DNA of 9,008 nucleotides from a virus (taxonomy: Duplodnaviria; Heunggongvirae; Uroviricota; Caudoviricetes), in the IMG/VR virus record IMGVR_UViG_2703718855_000006. One strand, given 5' to 3'. The translations under genes and the position numbers were made by a program. Numbering within the stretch: the first letter of the stretch is position 1; every line of letters begins with the position of its first letter. The notes under the pieces were generated by a model, which was not told the DNA's origin, ran no database searches, and saw only the letters and a program-made list of their open reading frames with translations. Positions 1 through 9,008 of the stretch are shown here, one piece after another.

Positions 1-303
1 TTCTCCCAAACCAAGGTTTTCGAGAGCCGTTTTCACCGTGCCATCCGATTTGATATCGCCAAACGGATTCTTGCGGCTTAACAGCAGCGCACGAAGCGCG
101 GTAAGCAGCTGGTCGTGCCGCCCCTTCTCCAGGCTGGCACCGGATGCCTCCACCACGCTGCAAAGCTCCTCCTGCAACATGTCAAAGTAGTCATCATCCA
201 GATCGGTGGCAGGCGTGCCGGTCTGGGGGTTACCACGGGTAAAACCGTTCTTACCCGCGCCGAACTTATCCTTCTGCGCGGTTTTCGTGTCTATACGATG
301 CAT
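1..303 (-). CDS. Hypothetical phage protein, N-terminal 101 codons only; the gene continues past the window start
   Basis: My own reverse-complement translation (not in the ORF track because there is no stop in the window): [101 protein letters not shown]... ATG at 303-301 is preceded by a stop in the same frame and a GGAG Shine-Dalgarno about 7 nt upstream, and overlaps the stop of the upstream gene (ATGCATCGTATAG). Confidence 0.45.
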
Positions 304-779
304 GGATTACTCCGGATAGCATCCTGCATCTTTGCGGCAAACTCGGCAGCCGCTTCCGGTGTTTTTTTCAGTTGTACCGCAAGATAAGCTGTCGCTTTAC
401 CCACACCGCCAAGAATGTTTTCTGCCGGGATCCCCTGACGCACCAGCATCTGCATCATGTTCTGGAAATCAGCCGTTGTACCGGGTAGCTGATTACCCAG
501 GCCAATAGCCAGTTTATTGATGTCCTGAAAGCTCTTTCCAACCTCGCCGTTCGCATCCATCATGGCGACTTTCAGCCCGGTGGCGGCGTTTTCCTGATCG
601 GCATAAGATTTCAGGGAAAGCGTCAGACCCGCTGCCAGTCCGCCACCAAGCGCCAGCCCACCCTGTGACGCTTCTTCCGCCTGGCGTTTAAATCCCCGGA
701 TTTTCTTTTGCATTTTCGACAGCGCGGGAGAAAGCCTGTCGACACCGGTGATCAACGCCTTAAGCTCAAATTCCGCCAT
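291..779 (-). CDS. Hypothetical phage protein, 162 aa, with a Gly/Ala-rich hydrophobic segment; resembles the N-terminal region of tail tape-measure or minor tail proteins, or a membrane protein
   Basis: ORF track 291..779. ATG start overlaps the end of the upstream reading frame and its stop overlaps the next start. Segment [17 protein letters not shown] followed by an Ala/Gly/Gln-rich helical region. Function is inferred from composition only. Confidence 0.5.
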
Positions 780-1218
780 GTGTGCGTTTCTCCTGCTCTA
801 TCCTGTTTGCCTGACTGACCAGCAAGGGAATTTCACTGATCGGCATATTCAGCAATTCGAAGGGATTAATGCGCCAGTAGCTGGCGCAGTCAAAGAAGCG
901 ATCAGTGAGGTATTCAGCCGTCAGGCCTGGAGGAAAAAACCAGCCACAAGCCACGCCGCTGCATTCAGGTCTGCCGGAGACATCTGGTCGACAGAGCTTT
1001 GCGGCACTTTCGCCAGCCGCACAATGTATTTCGATACCACATGCGCCAGAAGTCTGACGGACTCATCCTGATTCATCTGGTAGGGATACCGCTGCATTCA
1101 CTGAACGGTATCCCAGCATGGTTGCCACCTCCTGATTGGTTGGCGGAAAGCCACGCTCTTTCTGGTAAGAAATCAGCATATCCAGCACCTGCTGCTGGCA
1201 TTGAGTTAACGTCGTCAT
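766..1218 (-). pseudogene. LexA-N-terminal-like DNA-binding protein gene split across three frames (1218-1063, 1097-921, 954-766); either a frameshifted pseudogene or a gene using recoding
   Basis: Frame a (ATG at 1218-1216, ATGA overlap with the Dam stop) encodes MTTLTQCQQQVLDMLISYQKERGFPPTNQEVATMLGYRSVNAAVSLPDESG then TGA; this parallels the LexA DNA-binding domain (LT.RQQEV.D.I...G.PPT..E.A..LG.RS.NAA). Frame b (ATG 1097-1095) encodes MQRYPYQMNQDESVRLLAHVVSKYIVRLAKVPQSSVDQMSPADLNAAAWLVAGFFLQA. The third frame (766..954 in the ORF track) has no ATG; the track assumes a GTG. Frames a and c are the same phase, separated by the TGA at 1065-1063. Confidence 0.4.
933..939 (-). other. Canonical -1 slippery heptamer U_UUU_UUC at the junction of the second and third reading frames of the split gene
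   Basis: Minus-strand mRNA reads GGU UUU UUC CUC CAG GCC UGA in frame b; a -1 slip at U UUU UUC continues in the 766..954 frame (UUU UUU CCU CCA ...). The plus strand shows an A6 run at 934-939. It could equally be a homopolymer indel or a sequencing error. Confidence 0.35.
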
Positions 1219-1868
1219 GCCGCCATCTCCCTGACCAGTTTTTCCGCCTGCTGGCGAACCTGCACCAGAAAGGCTTCACCACATGCCTCAAGTTCATCGC
1301 GCCCGATGTAGCTGATTGCCGGTCCCTTCCAGGTCTTGTCGAAAACAGCAATAGCACCAGCGAAGAAAGCGCCTGTCGGCACCTGCTTCTCATCCTTCGG
1401 GATAAACCAGGCAGGCAGTTCAAAACCAATACGCCCGCGAATAAAAGCAATATGGTCCGCATCTTCCGGCCACCACACTTCGCTGGTGGCAGCTTTGATC
1501 AGGAAAACATAGCGCCCGCCCTTATCACGCATGGCACTGGCATGTTTCATGATGTAACGCATGCCGGTGATGTATTGCCCCTCATGCTGACTGGCGCGGC
1601 TGTATGGGGGATTACCAAAGGCAGCACCTTTAAGCTCCGCAAGACGTTCTGACCAGTCATGCGCCAGCGCGTTATCTTCCGCCGTGTAATACGCGGCACA
1701 TTTGGCGTTATCACCGTCAGTAAACAGATCCAGAACAAACGGGCCAAACAGGGTGTTAATTCCCCAGAAAATGTTGTCCGGCGTGCGCCACTGATCGCCC
1801 ACTTCCTTCAGTTCATGGGCTGGTTTGTTCCGCAGTTCCACCAGCGCCTGGCAATATTTATTACTCAT
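1215..1868 (-). CDS. Phage DNA N6-adenine methyltransferase (Dam family, orphan methylase)
   Basis: 217 aa from ATG 1868-1866 (MSNKYCQALVELRNKPAHELKEVGDQWRTPDNIF...), one nt overlapping the upstream stop (TAATG). Contains the catalytic NPPY motif (GAAFGNPPYSR) and a DxWxTP-like N-terminal motif typical of phage Dam-type methylases. The ORF-track start at 1901 is probably too far upstream. Confidence 0.85.
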   Translation of the reverse strand: MSNKYCQALVELRNKPAHELKEVGDQWRTPDNIFWGINTLFGPFVLDLFTDGDNAKCAAYYTAEDNALAHDWSERLAELKGAAFGNPPYSRASQHEGQYITGMRYIMKHASAMRDKGGRYVFLIKAATSEVWWPEDADHIAFIRGRIGFELPAWFIPKDEKQVPTGAFFAGAIAVFDKTWKGPAISYIGRDELEACGEAFLVQVRQQAEKLVREMAA

Positions 1869-2356
1869 TAAGCCCCCACGTAATTCCCTGACAGATACCA
1901 CTCTTCACCCGATGCAGCGCGCTTGCTGCTTTTCCGTAAGCACCGCTCACGACGCGCCAGAAAATTGTTTCGTTCTGGCTGGGAGTGGCTTTCACGGAAT
2001 GCCGCCATCCACACGGTTGCAGCACGACGGTATAAGCCCCTGGACTCCAGTTCTTCAGCCTGGCGGGTCAGGCACAAAATCACCCGTGGATCGTTAGTGC
2101 CGACATAGAAATTGCGCACAGGTCTGGTTTCTCGAACTGGTTGTGGTTCCGGTTCCTGCGCTCTCTCAGTCAGGCGCGGGAAATGTCTGCGTGTATCTCC
2201 TTCACAACGGTGAGCCACACGCCCACTCTGACGTAACTTGCTTGCTGACTGCAGAACGCGCTGCCGTGAGTAACCTGCAAAAGCATCCGCAATGTCTCCG
2301 GAAGTACATCCCGGATGGGCTTCAATGAATTTCTGAACTTCATTCAAAAGACTCAT
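1868..2356 (-). CDS. PerC-family-like small regulatory protein with an N-terminal winged-helix-like region
   Basis: ORF track 1868..2362 uses a GTG; the ATG at 2356-2354 is preceded by GGGGGTGA and gives 162 aa. The C-terminal segment AEELESRGLYRRAATVWMAAFRESHSQPERNNFLARRERCLRKS resembles the PerC family signature. Assignment is from recalled motif similarity. Confidence 0.5.
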   Translation of the reverse strand: MSLLNEVQKFIEAHPGCTSGDIADAFAGYSRQRVLQSASKLRQSGRVAHRCEGDTRRHFPRLTERAQEPEPQPVRETRPVRNFYVGTNDPRVILCLTRQAEELESRGLYRRAATVWMAAFRESHSQPERNNFLARRERCLRKSSKRAASGEEWYLSGNYVGA

Positions 2357-4531: not shown

Positions 4532-5158
4532 ATGGAAACGGTTGGTCAGCGTATAAAAGCTCTGAGAAGAGTTACCGGAACGTCCCAGAAAGAATTGGGT
4601 AAATTTTGTGGAGTAAGCGACGTTGCTGTGGGGTACTGGGAGAAAGACATCAATACCCCTGGTGGGGAGGCACTTTCGAAATTAGCGAAGTTCTTCAATA
4701 CGTCAATAGATTACATTCTTTATGGTGCTGAGTTTGAAGGCAAACTCGTCACAAACATGCGCAGAGTTCCTGTAATATCGTGGGTTCAGGCTGGGCAGTT
4801 TACTGAGTGCAGGGCAGCAGAAGTGTTTAGTGAAGTGGACAAGTGGGTAGATACATCATTAAAGATTGGTGATAACTCATTTGCATTAGAGGTTAAAGGT
4901 GACTCCATGACTAACCCTAATGGCCTCCCAACAATACCAGAAGGCGCAACAGTGATTGTAGATCCAGATGCAGAACCTCGTCATGGAAAAATAGTCATCG
5001 CTCGACTTGATGGAACAAACGAAGCTACAGTAAAAAAATTAGTCATCGATGGCCCTCAAAAGTTTTTAGTGCCATTAAATCCTCGGTATCCCAACATCCC
5101 TATCAATGGTAATTGCCTTATCATTGGTGTAGTCAAAGGAGTTCAATACGAACTCTAA
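4532..5158 (+). CDS. Phage repressor, CI/LexA type (XRE-family HTH plus S24 peptidase autocleavage domain)
   Basis: 208 aa. N-terminal HTH (QRIKALRRVTGTSQKELGKFCGVSDVAVGYWEKDINTPGGEALSKLAKFF). C-terminal S24 domain with catalytic Ser in GDSM and Lys in TVKKL. Candidate Ala-Gly cleavage site in WVQAGQF. Occupies the cohE position but is shorter than K-12 CohE (224 aa), suggesting a different immunity type. Confidence 0.9.
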   Translation: METVGQRIKALRRVTGTSQKELGKFCGVSDVAVGYWEKDINTPGGEALSKLAKFFNTSIDYILYGAEFEGKLVTNMRRVPVISWVQAGQFTECRAAEVFSEVDKWVDTSLKIGDNSFALEVKGDSMTNPNGLPTIPEGATVIVDPDAEPRHGKIVIARLDGTNEATVKKLVIDGPQKFLVPLNPRYPNIPINGNCLIIGVVKGVQYEL

Positions 5159-8078: not shown

Positions 8079-9008
8079 CTAATTCTCTTTTATTAATTTC
8101 AGGGAATTACAGAGATTGGCAATTTTAGATTTGCATTCGAGAATAGTTATTGCTTTCTTTATTTCTCTGCATTTATTTAATCTTGCATTGAATACTAACC
8201 TTTCAAAATTATTTATCAGCTTATTTTGAGGTTCTGAGCAGCGCAGCTTATATAGTTTAAACAACCCAGTTCTTTGATAGTCATATCCATACTTTGACAA
8301 AAAGGCCATCAGGATAAAATGGAAACAGTTAATTAAATGCCATTTATTGCAAGATTTGTCACTCATTATGGTGGATATGTACTTGCAAACCTGTGTATAG
8401 TCTAATTCAGACTCTGATTTAGATTTGAATTCTGAATAAGTAATAACTCCTGTAGGTGTAATCATTTTTTCCACAATACTAATAAGGTCATCCTTGAAAA
8501 AATGGTCTACAGCATGCTCATTATCATAACCAGTCCCACTCAACATCGAAGCATCGCAAAATATATTTTGCATGGTTTTAATATACTTCACAAAATAAAT
8601 ATCGTTCTTTTCTGAAAGTGTTACATCTAAATATATCAACTCTCTTTCGAACTTTATACACCAAGCATAAAATGCTAAAAATTGATAACAAAAAGTTTGT
8701 AGGTAATATTTATCACCAATTGATTCATTATTTTTGTAATTATGCCATCCTTTAGTGCAATTTCCTGAAAAATTCCACAACCTATGATTCAATGACTCAG
8801 CTGAATCGAGTAAAGGCATTTTATATTTTGATATCGCCTCTTTGATTTTCTTCTTTTGTTCGTAGCTATGTTCAACTTTGATTTTGTAAACAATGAAATA
8901 TTTATTCCATAAAGGTGTGCATACACCTTTTATAAAAAATAATAAAACCGTAACTAATGCAGATACTAGTGCCGCCATAACAGCAGGAGCTGAAGTTATT
9001 TCAGACAT
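8079..9008 (-). CDS. Hypothetical membrane-anchored protein (309 aa), AT-rich cargo gene in the slot that holds lit in e14; candidate phage-exclusion or defence protein
   Basis: ORF track 8079..9008. Predicted N-terminal transmembrane helix (APAVMAALVSALVTVLLFFIKGV). Roughly 25-30% GC on sampled lines versus about 55% in int. Convergent with int. No HEXXH motif, so it is not the Lit metalloprotease. The start codon coincides with the window end, so the true N-terminus and promoter are not visible. Confidence 0.7.
   Translation of the reverse strand: MSEITSAPAVMAALVSALVTVLLFFIKGVCTPLWNKYFIVYKIKVEHSYEQKKKIKEAISKYKMPLLDSAESLNHRLWNFSGNCTKGWHNYKNNESIGDKYYLQTFCYQFLAFYAWCIKFERELIYLDVTLSEKNDIYFVKYIKTMQNIFCDASMLSGTGYDNEHAVDHFFKDDLISIVEKMITPTGVITYSEFKSKSESELDYTQVCKYISTIMSDKSCNKWHLINCFHFILMAFLSKYGYDYQRTGLFKLYKLRCSEPQNKLINNFERLVFNARLNKCREIKKAITILECKSKIANLCNSLKLIKEN

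What the first reader, a model, noticed from the sequence alone, without database searches (positions are those of the whole stretch)
766..1218. LexA-DBD-like gene split across three frames, with a perfect -1 slippery heptamer (U UUU UUC) at the second junction
The first frame encodes a 50-residue peptide that tracks the LexA N-terminal DNA-binding domain closely and stops at TGA. A second frame (58 codons) and a third frame with no ATG follow, each overlapping the previous by about 30 nt; frames one and three are the same phase. The second-to-third junction sits exactly on U_UUU_UUC, a canonical -1 ribosomal frameshift site. That is also an A6/T6 homopolymer, the commonest site of frameshift mutations and sequencing errors. 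The three readings are a decaying pseudogene, a programmed frameshift (tail-assembly-chaperone G/GT style, which would fit the glycine-rich tape-measure-like protein immediately downstream, although 58 aa is short for a chaperone), or a sequencing artefact. The gene sits where lambdoid phages place their late-gene regulator.
Basis: seen in the sequence. Interest (0 to 1): 0.5.

Follow-up and report, generated by a model that had tools for sequence, protein, structure and literature searches.

The report
Prophage deletion scar plus fossil frameshift site
This is not one broken LexA-like gene: it is a scar in a decayed e14-type E. coli prophage, where a large deletion joined the start of a small LexA-family regulator gene to the back half of a phage tail-assembly-chaperone gene that still carries its normal, conserved programmed -1 frameshift signal. 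It is ordinary and of a well-known kind.

Summary
The three-frame layout and the in-register T_TTT_TTC heptamer (minus strand, 939..933) are real. They have two unrelated causes.

Junction 1 (window 1087-1090) is a deletion joint at a 4-bp microhomology (GGTA). It fuses codon 44 of a 108-aa LexA-family gene, out of frame, to codon 35 of an 89-aa tail assembly chaperone gene (Pfam Phage_TAC_7, the P2 gpE / Mu gp41 family). In intact relatives the two points lie about 15-18 kb apart, separated by the lysis, terminase, head, sheath and tube genes. The same joint occurs in four independent assemblies and in none of 5,426 complete E. coli genomes.

Junction 2 is the chaperone gene's native programmed -1 ribosomal frameshift site. 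In 105 of 109 distinct homologous sequences (down to about 40% protein identity; E. coli, Shigella, Salmonella, Edwardsiella, Pantoea, Burkholderia) the site reads NNT_TTT_TT[C/T] in register; the other 4 read GGG_TTT_TT[C/T]. In every locus examined for it, a 54-59 aa -1 ORF with conserved motifs follows and ends at the tape-measure start. This matches phage P2 E/E+E' (91/142 aa, T_TTT_TTG).

In this window the signal is a fossil. The chaperone has lost its start and 34 codons, and the tape-measure gene is cut by a second deletion (311-318). Sequencing error is excluded. Low interest; already known kind.

The parts
1087..1218 (-). 5' 44 codons of a LexA-family (DNA-binding-domain-only) early gene. 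The chimeric ORF continues to the TGA at 1065..1063 through 7 foreign codons (SLPDESG) read from the -1 frame of the chaperone gene.
   Evidence: Pfam LexA_DNA_bind E 5.7e-10, profile 1-43/65. phrog_362 'transcriptional repressor', positions 1-45/106. The intact 108-aa homologue WP_000210154.1 lies between Dam and RusA in E. coli SZQ1. Megablast homology stops at window 1087.
1087..1090 (.). Deletion joint 1: a 4-bp microhomology (TACC on the plus strand, GGTA on the minus strand) shared by the LexA-family side and the chaperone side.
   Evidence: Three-way alignment and base-by-base comparison with L002. The two sides are 17,888 bp apart in SZQ1. None of 5,426 complete E. coli genomes spans the joint. 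The joint is present and identical in 4 independent assemblies.
921..1090 (-). 3' part (codons 35-89 plus stop) of the tail assembly chaperone gene (P2 gpE / Mu gp41 family). The ATG at 1097 that appears to start 'frame B' lies on the LexA side of the joint and is fortuitous.
   Evidence: Pfam Phage_TAC_7, 27.7 bits (cut-off 25), profile 42-78/79. The intact 89-aa protein scores 58.8 bits over profile 2-78/79. The segment is 99.4-99.7% identical to 'phage tail assembly protein' WP_000661054.1 genes.
933..939 (-). Slippery heptamer T_TTT_TTC in the X_XXY_YYZ register of the chaperone frame: the native programmed -1 ribosomal frameshift site.
   Evidence: Register read. The same site is found in SfV, EPP-1, AH07, F1055, SfIV, ST64B, phiP27 and BgVeeders33. 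It is in register in 45 of 45 distinct diverged IMG/VR loci. 105 of 109 distinct sequences read NNT_TTT_TT[C/T]. P2 has GGT TTT TTG at the aligned position, with an annotated -1 frameshift.
766..939 (-). -1 frame extension (E'-like, 57 aa: [57 protein letters not shown]) through the stop at 768..766. It overlaps the tape-measure ATG at 779..777.
   Evidence: phrog_32181, E 3.7e-41. tblastn finds it in a second frame in 23 phage records. A, W, P, A, R and I are invariant across 7 diverged trans-frame products. In several homologues there is no start codon before the conserved FWRINP motif.
311..779 (-). 5' ~156 codons of the tail tape-measure gene. The ORF runs on through a few foreign codons to a stop at 293..291.
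   Evidence: Pfam PhageMin_Tail E 3e-8. PGAP calls the matching gene 'phage tail tape measure protein'. Homology to the 610-aa gene ends at window 311.
311..318 (.). Deletion joint 2: the tape-measure gene joined to the 3' end of ymfQ, just upstream of the tail-fibre gene. The overlap of up to 8 bp is taken from BLAST alignment boundaries.
   Evidence: Tape-measure homology covers window 311-1090. ymfQ/stfP homology covers window 1-318.
1..303 (-). Start of the tail-fibre gene (StfP-like), which runs off the window.
   Evidence: phrog_1396 'tail fiber protein' E 4e-54. PGAP names it 'stfP: protein StfP'. In L171 the gene product is 266 aa with a Collar domain.
1215..1901 (-). Context: an intact phage Dam N6-adenine methyltransferase gene immediately upstream of the LexA-family remnant, in the same operon.
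   Evidence: Pfam Dam E 1.1e-45. PGAP names it 'phage N-6-adenine-methyltransferase'.

Best explanation
Window 766-1218 is a scar in a defective e14-type (SfV/SfI-related) prophage integrated at icd in E. coli.

First junction. An illegitimate-recombination deletion of about 15-18 kb, at a 4-bp GGTA microhomology (1087-1090), removed everything from codon 45 of a small LexA-family early gene to codon 34 of the tail assembly chaperone gene. The lost genes are RusA, KilA-N, Q, lysis, terminase, portal, capsid, sheath and tube. The two gene remnants were joined out of frame. This is the first 'frame junction'.

Second junction. This is the chaperone gene's own conserved programmed -1 ribosomal frameshift site. 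In intact relatives most ribosomes terminate 12 nt after T_TTT_TTC and make an 89-aa chaperone. A minority slip back one base: two tRNA-Phe re-pair from UUU-UUC to UUU-UUU. Those ribosomes make a ~141-aa chaperone whose C-terminal extension ends at the tape-measure start codon, as in P2 E/E+E' and, by analogy, lambda G/GT.

State in this window. The recoding signal is a non-functional fossil. The chaperone gene lacks its start, its ribosome-binding site and 34 codons. The tape-measure gene is truncated by a second deletion. All tail-tube, sheath and head genes are gone.

Shown: both deletion joints, the homologies, the register, and the conservation of heptamer and -1 ORF. Inferred: that frameshifting actually occurs in the intact relatives (from homology to P2, where it was demonstrated, and from conservation), and that the remnant does nothing here.
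For: Deletion.
- Left-arm homology ends at window 1087 and right-arm homology begins at 1090.
- Both arms lie in one prophage 17,888 bp apart in E. coli SZQ1, with the expected gene order. They lie about 14.6 kb apart in strain FT130 (coordinates).
- The GGTA microhomology is seen.
- The chimeric 51-aa ORF is present in 4 independent assemblies, with 601 nt identical around the joint.
- L171 shows the whole element: int, xis, repressor, cro, YmfL, Dam, LexA', TMP', fibre, Caudo_TAP x2, Pin-type resolvase, HNH, icd fragment.

Gene identities.
- LexA_DNA_bind, profile 1-43/65, and Phage_TAC_7, profile 42-78/79, for the remnants.
- The intact proteins match full-length.

Frameshift.
- The trans-frame product is matched as two tblastn pieces in 23 phage records, down to 39% identity.
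- An in-register TTTTTT[C/T] plus a 54-57 aa -1 ORF ending at the tape-measure start is present in 9 of 9 annotated loci.
- The same is true in 45 of 45 distinct IMG/VR loci.
- The base before TTT is T in 105 of 109 distinct sequences, whether the codon is Gly, Asn or Arg.
- 0-frame tails after the site vary from 9 to 69 nt and are unrelated, while the -1 frame keeps invariant residues.
- The -1 ORF has no usable start before its conserved motif in F1055, SfIV, phiP27, BgVeeders33, AH07 and L107.
- P2 E/E+E' has the same GGT TTT TTG context, 91/142 aa, E' overlapping T by 8 nt, and an annotated -1 frameshift.
Against: - No experiment on this family was found in the searchable literature. Frameshifting is inferred, not shown.
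- Homology of the extension to P2 E' is only marginal: hhalign gives a collinear alignment with E 0.033, and no Pfam PF06528 hit appeared at E <= 1.
- No significant downstream RNA structure was found: z = -1.29, and the nearest hairpin starts about 44 nt downstream. P2 and its relatives also lack one (PMC3091744).
- 4 of 109 variants have G instead of T at heptamer position 1.
- Non-function of the remnant is inferred from what is missing. The remaining frames are still open and 99.4-99.7% identical to intact copies, so decay since the deletion is minimal.
Confidence: 0.93

Rival explanations
1. A single LexA-like gene was inactivated by two frameshift mutations, so all three frames are pieces of one ancestral ORF.
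For: Frames A and C share a phase, and frame A has clear LexA-DBD homology.
Against: Frames B and C match Phage_TAC_7 and phrog_32181, not LexA. The intact LexA-family gene continues with unrelated sequence (VEHLRALEKKGVI...) after codon 44. DNA homology switches abruptly at 1087-1090 between two loci that lie 15-18 kb apart in intact prophages.
Confidence: 0.01
2. A sequencing or assembly artefact: a miscounted A6/T6 homopolymer and/or a chimeric assembly joint.
For: Homopolymers are error-prone. The joint is absent from 5,426 complete E. coli genomes and from the species-representative genomes.
Against: The same 601 nt, with both junctions, are identical in four independent assemblies: three Logan runs and GCA_001441335.1. 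T6 is the count in intact homologues, and it is required for the conserved two-frame architecture.
Confidence: 0.01
3. There is no recoding: the -1 ORF is an independent small gene (or is not expressed), and the heptamer is a by-product of a conserved Gly-Phe-Phe peptide.
For: Gene callers annotate the -1 ORF as a separate 60-63 aa 'hypothetical protein' from a GTG on more than 900 contigs. PHROGs holds it as its own family. The TTTTTTC motif alone is common.
Against: In F1055, SfIV, phiP27, BgVeeders33, AH07 and L107 no start codon precedes the conserved part of the -1 ORF. The third base of the preceding codon is T in 105 of 109 sequences even where the amino acid differs (Gly, Asn, Arg), and the first Phe codon is always TTT. 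That is nucleotide-level constraint, not peptide-level constraint. The homologous P2 site is a demonstrated -1 frameshift.
Confidence: 0.03
4. The long product in intact relatives is made by transcriptional slippage of RNA polymerase on the T6/A6 run rather than by ribosomal slippage.
For: The site is a homopolymer, and both mechanisms would give the same long protein.
Against: Six bases is short for efficient RNA polymerase slippage, which usually needs about 9 or more A/T (general knowledge; reviewed in PMC5009743). The conserved feature is a heptamer in a fixed codon register, including the variable last base C/T/G. Register matters for tRNA re-pairing, not for polymerase slippage.
Confidence: 0.02
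5. The remnant has been co-opted: the truncated chaperone (from the fortuitous ATG at 1097 or the internal Met at 1076) and its frameshift product, or the 51-aa LexA' peptide, are expressed and do something for the host.
For: All remnant frames are still open. The region lies downstream of intact early genes in the same orientation. One gene caller predicts a 51-aa TAC' ORF (L172).
Against: The variant is rare: 4 assemblies and 0 of 5,426 complete genomes. At 99.4-99.7% identity to intact copies there has been too little time for selection to show. The N-terminal half of the chaperone, most of the LexA recognition helix and wing, the tape-measure C-terminus and the tube protein are all missing.
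Confidence: 0.02

Closest known systems
Phage P2 tail genes E / E+E' (programmed -1 frameshift at T_TTT_TTG; Christie et al. 2002, cited in PMC3091744)
   Same: Both belong to Pfam family Phage_TAC_7. The local context is the same (GGT TTT TTN, peptide ..(A/V)GF..). The product sizes are the same (89/141 aa against 91/142 aa). The gene position is the same, between tail tube and tape measure. In both, the -1 extension ends a few nt past the tape-measure ATG.
   Different: The last heptamer base is C or T rather than G. The extension is only marginally similar to P2 E' (hhalign E 0.033; no PF06528 hit). The head, tail and regulatory background is SfV/e14-type, not P2-type. In this window the gene is a 5'-truncated remnant.
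Phage lambda G / GT tail assembly chaperones (Levin et al. 1993; Xu, Hendrix & Duda 2004, 2013, 2014; reviewed in PMC5009743)
   Same: The logic is the same: a short and a long chaperone made from one start by low-level -1 slippage just upstream of the tape-measure gene. The short part binds the tape measure, and the extension recruits the tube protein.
   Different: No detectable sequence homology: only Phage_TAC_7 was hit. The lambda heptamer is G_GGA_AAG (my recollection, not checked here) and its tail is non-contractile. This is an analogy of mechanism, not family membership.
Tail assembly genes of SfV (orf13), SfI, SfII, SfIV, ST64B (sb15), phiP27 (L46), and intact e14-like prophages ('phage tail assembly protein' WP_000661054.1)
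   Same: These are direct homologues at 39-100% protein identity. All have the heptamer and the -1 ORF.
   Different: Those copies are full length (89-111 aa in the 0 frame) and sit between the tube and tape-measure genes. None of the records examined annotates the frameshift product.
e14 defective prophage of E. coli K-12 (at icd)
   Same: The element type and integration site are the same: intE-type integrase, xis, S24 repressor/Cro, YmfL/YmfM, ymfQ-stfP fibre, Pin invertase, an McrA-like HNH protein and an icd fragment. The morphogenesis module is related to SfV and SfI (PMC3636060).
   Different: The set of internal deletions differs. No complete E. coli genome in RefSeq, which would include K-12 strains, spans the joint at 1087-1090. 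Here Dam and PerC are intact and the scar is LexA'-TAC'-TMP'-ymfQ'.

Membership tests
Phage_TAC_7 tail assembly chaperone with -1 PRF (P2 gpE/E+E', Mu gp41 family) | Sequence membership in Pfam PF10109 | tested here: met
   The window fragment scores 27.7 bits against a cut-off of 25, E 2.7e-6, profile 42-78/79. The intact homologue scores 58.8 bits, E 5.6e-16, profile 2-78/79.
Phage_TAC_7 tail assembly chaperone with -1 PRF (P2 gpE/E+E', Mu gp41 family) | Gene lies between the tail tube gene and the tape-measure gene | tested here: met
   This order holds in all intact relatives. In the window the tape-measure gene follows directly, but the tube gene has been deleted.
Phage_TAC_7 tail assembly chaperone with -1 PRF (P2 gpE/E+E', Mu gp41 family) | [quoted passage not shown] | tested here: met
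   T_TTT_TTC at 939..933, 12 nt before the stop. It aligns with P2 T_TTT_TTG.
Phage_TAC_7 tail assembly chaperone with -1 PRF (P2 gpE/E+E', Mu gp41 family) | -1 ORF of about 50-60 codons reaching the tape-measure start, conserved with the heptamer across diverged homologues | tested here: met
   9 of 9 annotated loci and 45 of 45 distinct IMG/VR loci have it. 105 of 109 distinct sequences carry a perfect heptamer. The extension has invariant residues. Several homologues have no independent start.
Phage_TAC_7 tail assembly chaperone with -1 PRF (P2 gpE/E+E', Mu gp41 family) | Extension homologous to P2 E' (Pfam PF06528 Phage_P2_GpE) | tested here: inconclusive
   No Pfam hit at E <= 1 for three extension peptides. 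hhalign of the trans-frame alignment against P2 E+E' is collinear through the extension, but E is only 0.033.
Phage_TAC_7 tail assembly chaperone with -1 PRF (P2 gpE/E+E', Mu gp41 family) | Complete, translatable gene (own start and full N-terminal domain) | tested here: not met
   Codons 1-34 and the start region are deleted, so the window copy begins at Tyr35. It is a gene remnant of this family, not a functional member.
Phage_TAC_7 tail assembly chaperone with -1 PRF (P2 gpE/E+E', Mu gp41 family) | Two proteins actually produced at a fixed ratio | not testable with these tools
   This needs a reporter assay or mass spectrometry in an intact relative such as SfV or SfI.
LexA family (LexA_DNA_bind winged-helix regulators) | N-terminal LexA-type DNA-binding domain | tested here: inconclusive
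   Homology is clear (E 5.7e-10) but covers only profile positions 1-43 of 65. The intact 108-aa homologue covers 1-65 of 65. The remnant lacks the rest of the domain. By the known LexA structure (my knowledge) that is most of the recognition helix and the wing.
LexA family (LexA_DNA_bind winged-helix regulators) | C-terminal S24 peptidase / RecA-stimulated self-cleavage domain | tested here: not met
   Even the intact homologue has only 108 aa, with PF01726 as the only hit above Pfam's cut-off (all other matches fall below theirs) and no Peptidase_S24. It is a DBD-only LexA-family protein, not a LexA-type repressor. The prophage's S24 repressor is a different gene at 4532-5158.
e14-type defective prophage at icd | Integrase/xis, S24 repressor-Cro switch, YmfL/YmfM, ymfQ-stfP fibre, Pin invertase, HNH (McrA-like), duplicated icd fragment | tested here: met
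   PGAP names these genes intE, ymfL, ymfQ and stfP in matching genomes. The gene order with Pfam families, including the Iso_dh fragment, is seen in L171.

The most novel reading that the evidence does not exclude
The most novel reading not excluded is that the scar is not inert. Transcription from the intact early operon (replication gene, PerC, Dam) would run into the remnant. A truncated chaperone and its -1 frameshift product (from the fortuitous ATG at 1097), or the 51-aa LexA' peptide, would then be made and have acquired a host-level or anti-phage role, for example poisoning tail assembly of superinfecting SfV/e14-like phages by binding their tape-measure protein.
Probability: 0.02. 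Interest if true: 0.55.

Novelty: already known. Interest (0 to 1): 0.12.

Why it matters
It matters little beyond annotation hygiene.

First, a 'gene in three frames' in a prophage can be two independent things, a deletion joint and a native recoding site. Treating it as one pseudogene would mis-annotate both.

Second, none of the GenBank/RefSeq records examined for the SfV/SfI/ST64B/phiP27/e14 group annotates the chaperone's frameshift product. The -1 ORF is either left blank or called a 60-63 aa 'hypothetical protein' on hundreds of contigs (phrog_32181, 'unknown function'). The conservation data here (105 of 109 perfect in-register heptamers, and no independent start in several lineages) would justify annotating a join() CDS, as is done for P2 E+E'.

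Third, the two deletion joints document one more independent decay path of e14-type prophages.

Tried and rejected
- Searched for the 42-nt joint sequence in the species-representative genome collection: no match. Complete E. coli genomes also lack it. The source was found through an exact look-up of the chimeric 51-aa protein instead.
- The first IMG/VR scan returned only near-identical E. coli copies (35 distinct nucleotide sequences over the matched segment among 80 loci), which are uninformative for conservation. The scan was repeated with the Burkholderia-type protein placed first to obtain diverged loci.
- Looked for a downstream stimulatory RNA structure. The fold is not better than shuffles (z = -1.29), and the only stable hairpin starts about 44 nt downstream, too far for a canonical stimulator. 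No covariation analysis was attempted.
- Pfam search of the extension peptides for P2 GpE' (PF06528) found nothing. hhalign was marginal.
- Rfam on the whole window found nothing.
- Literature: no held paper describes frameshifting in SfV-group chaperones. Xu et al. 2004, Christie et al. 2002 and the SfV genome paper are not held, so I could not check whether SfV is listed there.
- PADLOC on two neighbouring unknown ORFs found nothing.
- Structure prediction was judged unnecessary and was not run.
Full report
**Observation**

The genes of the finding are on the minus strand.
- Frame A, 1218..1063, encodes 51 aa and ends in TGA.
- Frame B, 1097..921, encodes 58 aa.
- Frame C has the phase of frame A. 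It is open from 1062 to the stop at 768..766 and has no ATG.

The plus-strand A6 run is at 934-939. On the minus strand the frame-B codons read GCT GGT TTT TTC CTC CAG GCC TGA and the frame-C codons read TGG TTT TTT CCT. So T_TTT_TTC (939..933) is in the X_XXY_YYZ register of frame B, and frame C is its -1 frame.

The motif alone is not remarkable. TTTTTTC occurs 9 times in the window against 4.0 expected.

**What the three frames are**

Pfam assigns frame A to LexA_DNA_bind (E 5.7e-10), but only profile positions 1-43 of 65. It assigns frame B to Phage_TAC_7, 'Phage tail assembly chaperone proteins, E, or 41 or 14' (27.7 bits against a cut-off of 25), but only profile positions 42-78 of 79. 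Each is therefore half of a different gene: the front of one and the back of another.

The ORF just downstream (779..291) is the N-terminus of a tape-measure protein (PhageMin_Tail). Upstream lie an intact phage Dam methylase and a PerC-family gene.

**Junction 1 is a deletion joint**

Megablast against 5,426 complete E. coli genomes shows homology breaking exactly here.
- The Dam/LexA-family side aligns down to window 1087 at up to 100% identity.
- The 'phage tail assembly protein' and tape-measure side aligns from window 1090 downward at up to 100% identity.
- No genome spans the joint.

In E. coli SZQ1 both sides lie in one SfV/e14-like prophage. Its gene order is: LexA-family regulator (108 aa), RusA, KilA-N, DUF968, Q (interrupted by IS903B), a P-loop NTPase, holin, lysozyme, lysis protein, a DUF6236 protein, HNH, terminase small and large, YmfR, portal, protease, capsid, connector and closure proteins, sheath, tube, tail assembly protein (89 aa), tape measure.

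Base-by-base comparison puts the two breakpoints 17,888 bp apart in SZQ1. The 4 bp TACC/GGTA at window 1087-1090 are shared by both sides. In strain FT130 the distance is about 14.6 kb (coordinates).

On the LexA side, codons 1-44 are kept. The intact gene continues ...NAAVEHLRALEKKGVI, whereas the window continues ...NAAV|SLPDESG*. On the chaperone side, the gene resumes at Tyr35 of MKELELKKPITAHGETLSVLEFDEPTGKDVRELG|YPYQMNQ.... The ATG at 1097 that seems to start frame B belongs to the LexA side and is fortuitous.

**The deletion is real**

The chimeric 51-aa protein is on record in four independently assembled data sets: Logan SRR32363103, SRR2070767 and SRR29398494, and NCBI GCA_001441335.1. 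In all four, the 601 nt covering both junctions are identical to the window. The whole window differs from the 39.9-kb Logan contig at one base in 9,008.

That contig shows the complete element: integrase, excisionase, S24 repressor, Cro, YmfL, replication protein, PerC, Dam, LexA', TMP', tail fibre, two tail-fibre-assembly genes, a Gp53-like protein, a Pin-type resolvase, an HNH protein and an isocitrate-dehydrogenase fragment. This is an e14-type defective prophage at icd. PGAP names in matching genomes are intE, ymfL, ymfQ and stfP. The literature already links the e14, SfV, SfI, phiP27 and ST64B morphogenesis modules (PMC3636060).

**Junction 2 is the chaperone's native programmed -1 frameshift site**

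In intact copies the 89-aa ORF ends 12 nt after the same T_TTT_TTC. The -1 frame then runs 55-57 codons and stops 8-14 nt past the tape-measure ATG.

- A tblastn search with the conceptual trans-frame product (141 aa) found 30 phage records. In 23 of them the match covers at least 80% of the query as two pieces, i.e. both frames are conserved. These are SfV, SfI, SfII, SfIV, ST64B, phiP27, F1055, Edwardsiella EPP-1, Pantoea AH07 and Burkholderia BgVeeders33, down to 39% identity.
- In every one of nine loci inspected, TTTTTTC or TTTTTTT sits in register at the aligned Phe-Phe (codons 84-88), followed by a 54-57 aa -1 ORF that ends at the tape-measure start.
- A second IMG/VR scan gave 45 further distinct sequences. 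All have the in-register heptamer and a 54-59 aa -1 ORF.
- Over 109 distinct sequences the site is NNT TTT TT[C/T] in 105 and GGG TTT TT[C/T] in 4. The T before the run is kept whether the codon encodes Gly, Asn or Arg. This is constraint at the nucleotide level.
- After the site, the 0-frame tails vary from 9 to 69 nt and are unrelated (LQA*, LTRASQTPTT*, LNQGSGPTTSSEGSSTTLPTSGA*). The -1 frame keeps invariant A, W, P, A, R and I and the motif FW(R/K)(I/L/V)(N/D)P.
- In F1055, SfIV, phiP27, BgVeeders33, AH07 and L107 the -1 ORF has no ATG, GTG or TTG before that conserved motif. It can only be reached from the chaperone frame.

**Comparison with the known system**

Phage P2 genes E and E+E' are annotated in NC_001895 with a -1 frameshift at position 19685. 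The sequence there is GTC GGT TTT TTG. The products are 91 and 142 aa, and E' overlaps the start of T (tape measure) by 8 nt. PMC3091744 states that P2 frameshifts at TTTTTTG and that neither P2 nor its relatives have a downstream hairpin.

The family studied here has the same Pfam domain, the same GGT TTT TTN context, product sizes of 89 and 139-141 aa, and the same overlap with the tape-measure gene. I likewise found no significant structure downstream: z = -1.29, with the nearest hairpin about 44 nt away.

hhalign of the seven-member trans-frame alignment against P2 E+E' is collinear over 118 columns, through the slip site and the extension, but is only marginal (E 0.033). No Pfam PF06528 hit was obtained. 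Homology of the extension to E' therefore remains open.

The functional model is taken from lambda G/GT as reviewed in PMC5009743. There, the short form coats the tape measure and the extension of the long form recruits the tube protein, and P2-type sites shift 2-3 fold more often than lambda's. This is inference for the present family. No experiment on it was found.

**State of the locus in this window**

The chaperone remnant lacks its start and 34 codons. The tape-measure gene is itself cut: its homology ends at window 311, and homology to the 3' end of ymfQ plus the stfP tail-fibre gene begins at 318. This is a second deletion joint with up to 8 bp of overlap.

The 780 bp at 311-1090 are thus an orphan island of the tail module between two deletions. 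It is still 99.4-99.7% identical to intact copies, so the deletions are recent and no further decay is visible. With tube, sheath, baseplate and head genes gone, the frameshift signal here is a fossil.

**Rejected alternatives**

- One LexA gene with two frameshift mutations is refuted by the homology switch.
- Homopolymer miscount or chimeric assembly is refuted by four identical independent assemblies and by the T6 norm in homologues.
- The -1 ORF as an independent gene is contradicted by the lack of start codons and by the nucleotide-level constraint. Many annotations nonetheless call it a 60-63 aa hypothetical protein, and PHROGs lists it as phrog_32181, unknown function.
- Transcriptional slippage is unlikely for a 6-nt run with a conserved codon register.
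- Co-option of the remnant cannot be excluded but has no support.

**Verdict**

This is a correct observation with a mixed interpretation. The explanation is ordinary: a deletion scar in an e14-type prophage that happens to preserve the well-known, conserved tail-assembly-chaperone -1 frameshift site of the P2 gpE family. The only modest take-away is that the frameshift product is systematically missing from annotations of SfV/e14-group phages and prophages.

Noticed in passing
window 311-318 (and 291-779, 1-303, minus strand): There is a second deletion joint. The tape-measure gene is cut after about 156 of 610 codons and joined to the 3' end of ymfQ, just upstream of the stfP-like tail-fibre gene. 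The rest of the tape-measure gene, the DNA-circularization gene and the baseplate genes are gone. The overlap of up to 8 bp is inferred from BLAST boundaries only.
   Followed up: partly
L001 6152-6325; L003-L010; cluster 1: None of the GenBank/RefSeq records examined for SfV, SfI, SfIV, ST64B, phiP27, EPP-1, AH07, F1055, BgVeeders33 or the E. coli prophages annotates the chaperone's -1 frameshift product. The -1 ORF is left as a ~140-nt gap or called a 60-63 aa 'hypothetical protein' (seen on 921 contigs for one exact sequence). In PHROGs it is phrog_32181, 'unknown function'.
   Followed up: yes
L030, L061, L067 (IMG/VR) around locus position 950: A few E. coli-type copies carry GGG TTT TT[C/T] instead of GGT TTT TTC. 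This is a synonymous Gly change that makes the heptamer imperfect at position 1 (G_TTT_TTC). It accounts for 4 of 109 distinct sequences. Whether frameshifting tolerates this was not examined.
   Followed up: no
protein P0002: The exact 141-aa trans-frame product exists once in the protein collection as a called gene, on a single 7.2-kb Logan contig. That implies a copy with a 1-nt indel at the T run, either a real fused mutant or a homopolymer error. It was not inspected.
   Followed up: no
window 8079-9008 (minus strand); L171 492-3140: A 309-aa ORF with no PADLOC hit lies beyond the integrase (it was not scanned against Pfam here; L171 lists no Pfam family for it). It sits in a stretch of 31% G+C, against 52-55% in the window's first 4 kb. 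In the longer contig its neighbour is a 445-aa HEPN_Toprim_N protein. This looks like accessory or defence-type cargo at the integrase end of the element.
   Followed up: partly
L002 17315-18749 (E. coli SZQ1 prophage): In the otherwise complete reference prophage used for comparison, the Q antiterminator gene is split by an IS903B insertion. That relative is therefore probably defective too, and the 17,888-bp distance includes about 1 kb of IS.
   Followed up: no
NZ_CP028732.1 2091771-2092621 (E. coli H3): One complete genome has tape-measure and ymfQ/gp53-like sequence juxtaposed within 851 bp, matching window 1-520 in two pieces. This is apparently a different deletion in the same region of another e14-like remnant.
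   Followed up: no
window 1063-1065 and 1062-766 (minus strand): Frames A and C share a phase because the deletion placed the LexA remnant in the chaperone's -1 frame. The TGA that ends the chimeric LexA' ORF is the native -1-frame stop of the chaperone gene, 41 codons upstream of the heptamer in intact copies. It is a coincidence of the deletion, not a designed feature.
   Followed up: yes
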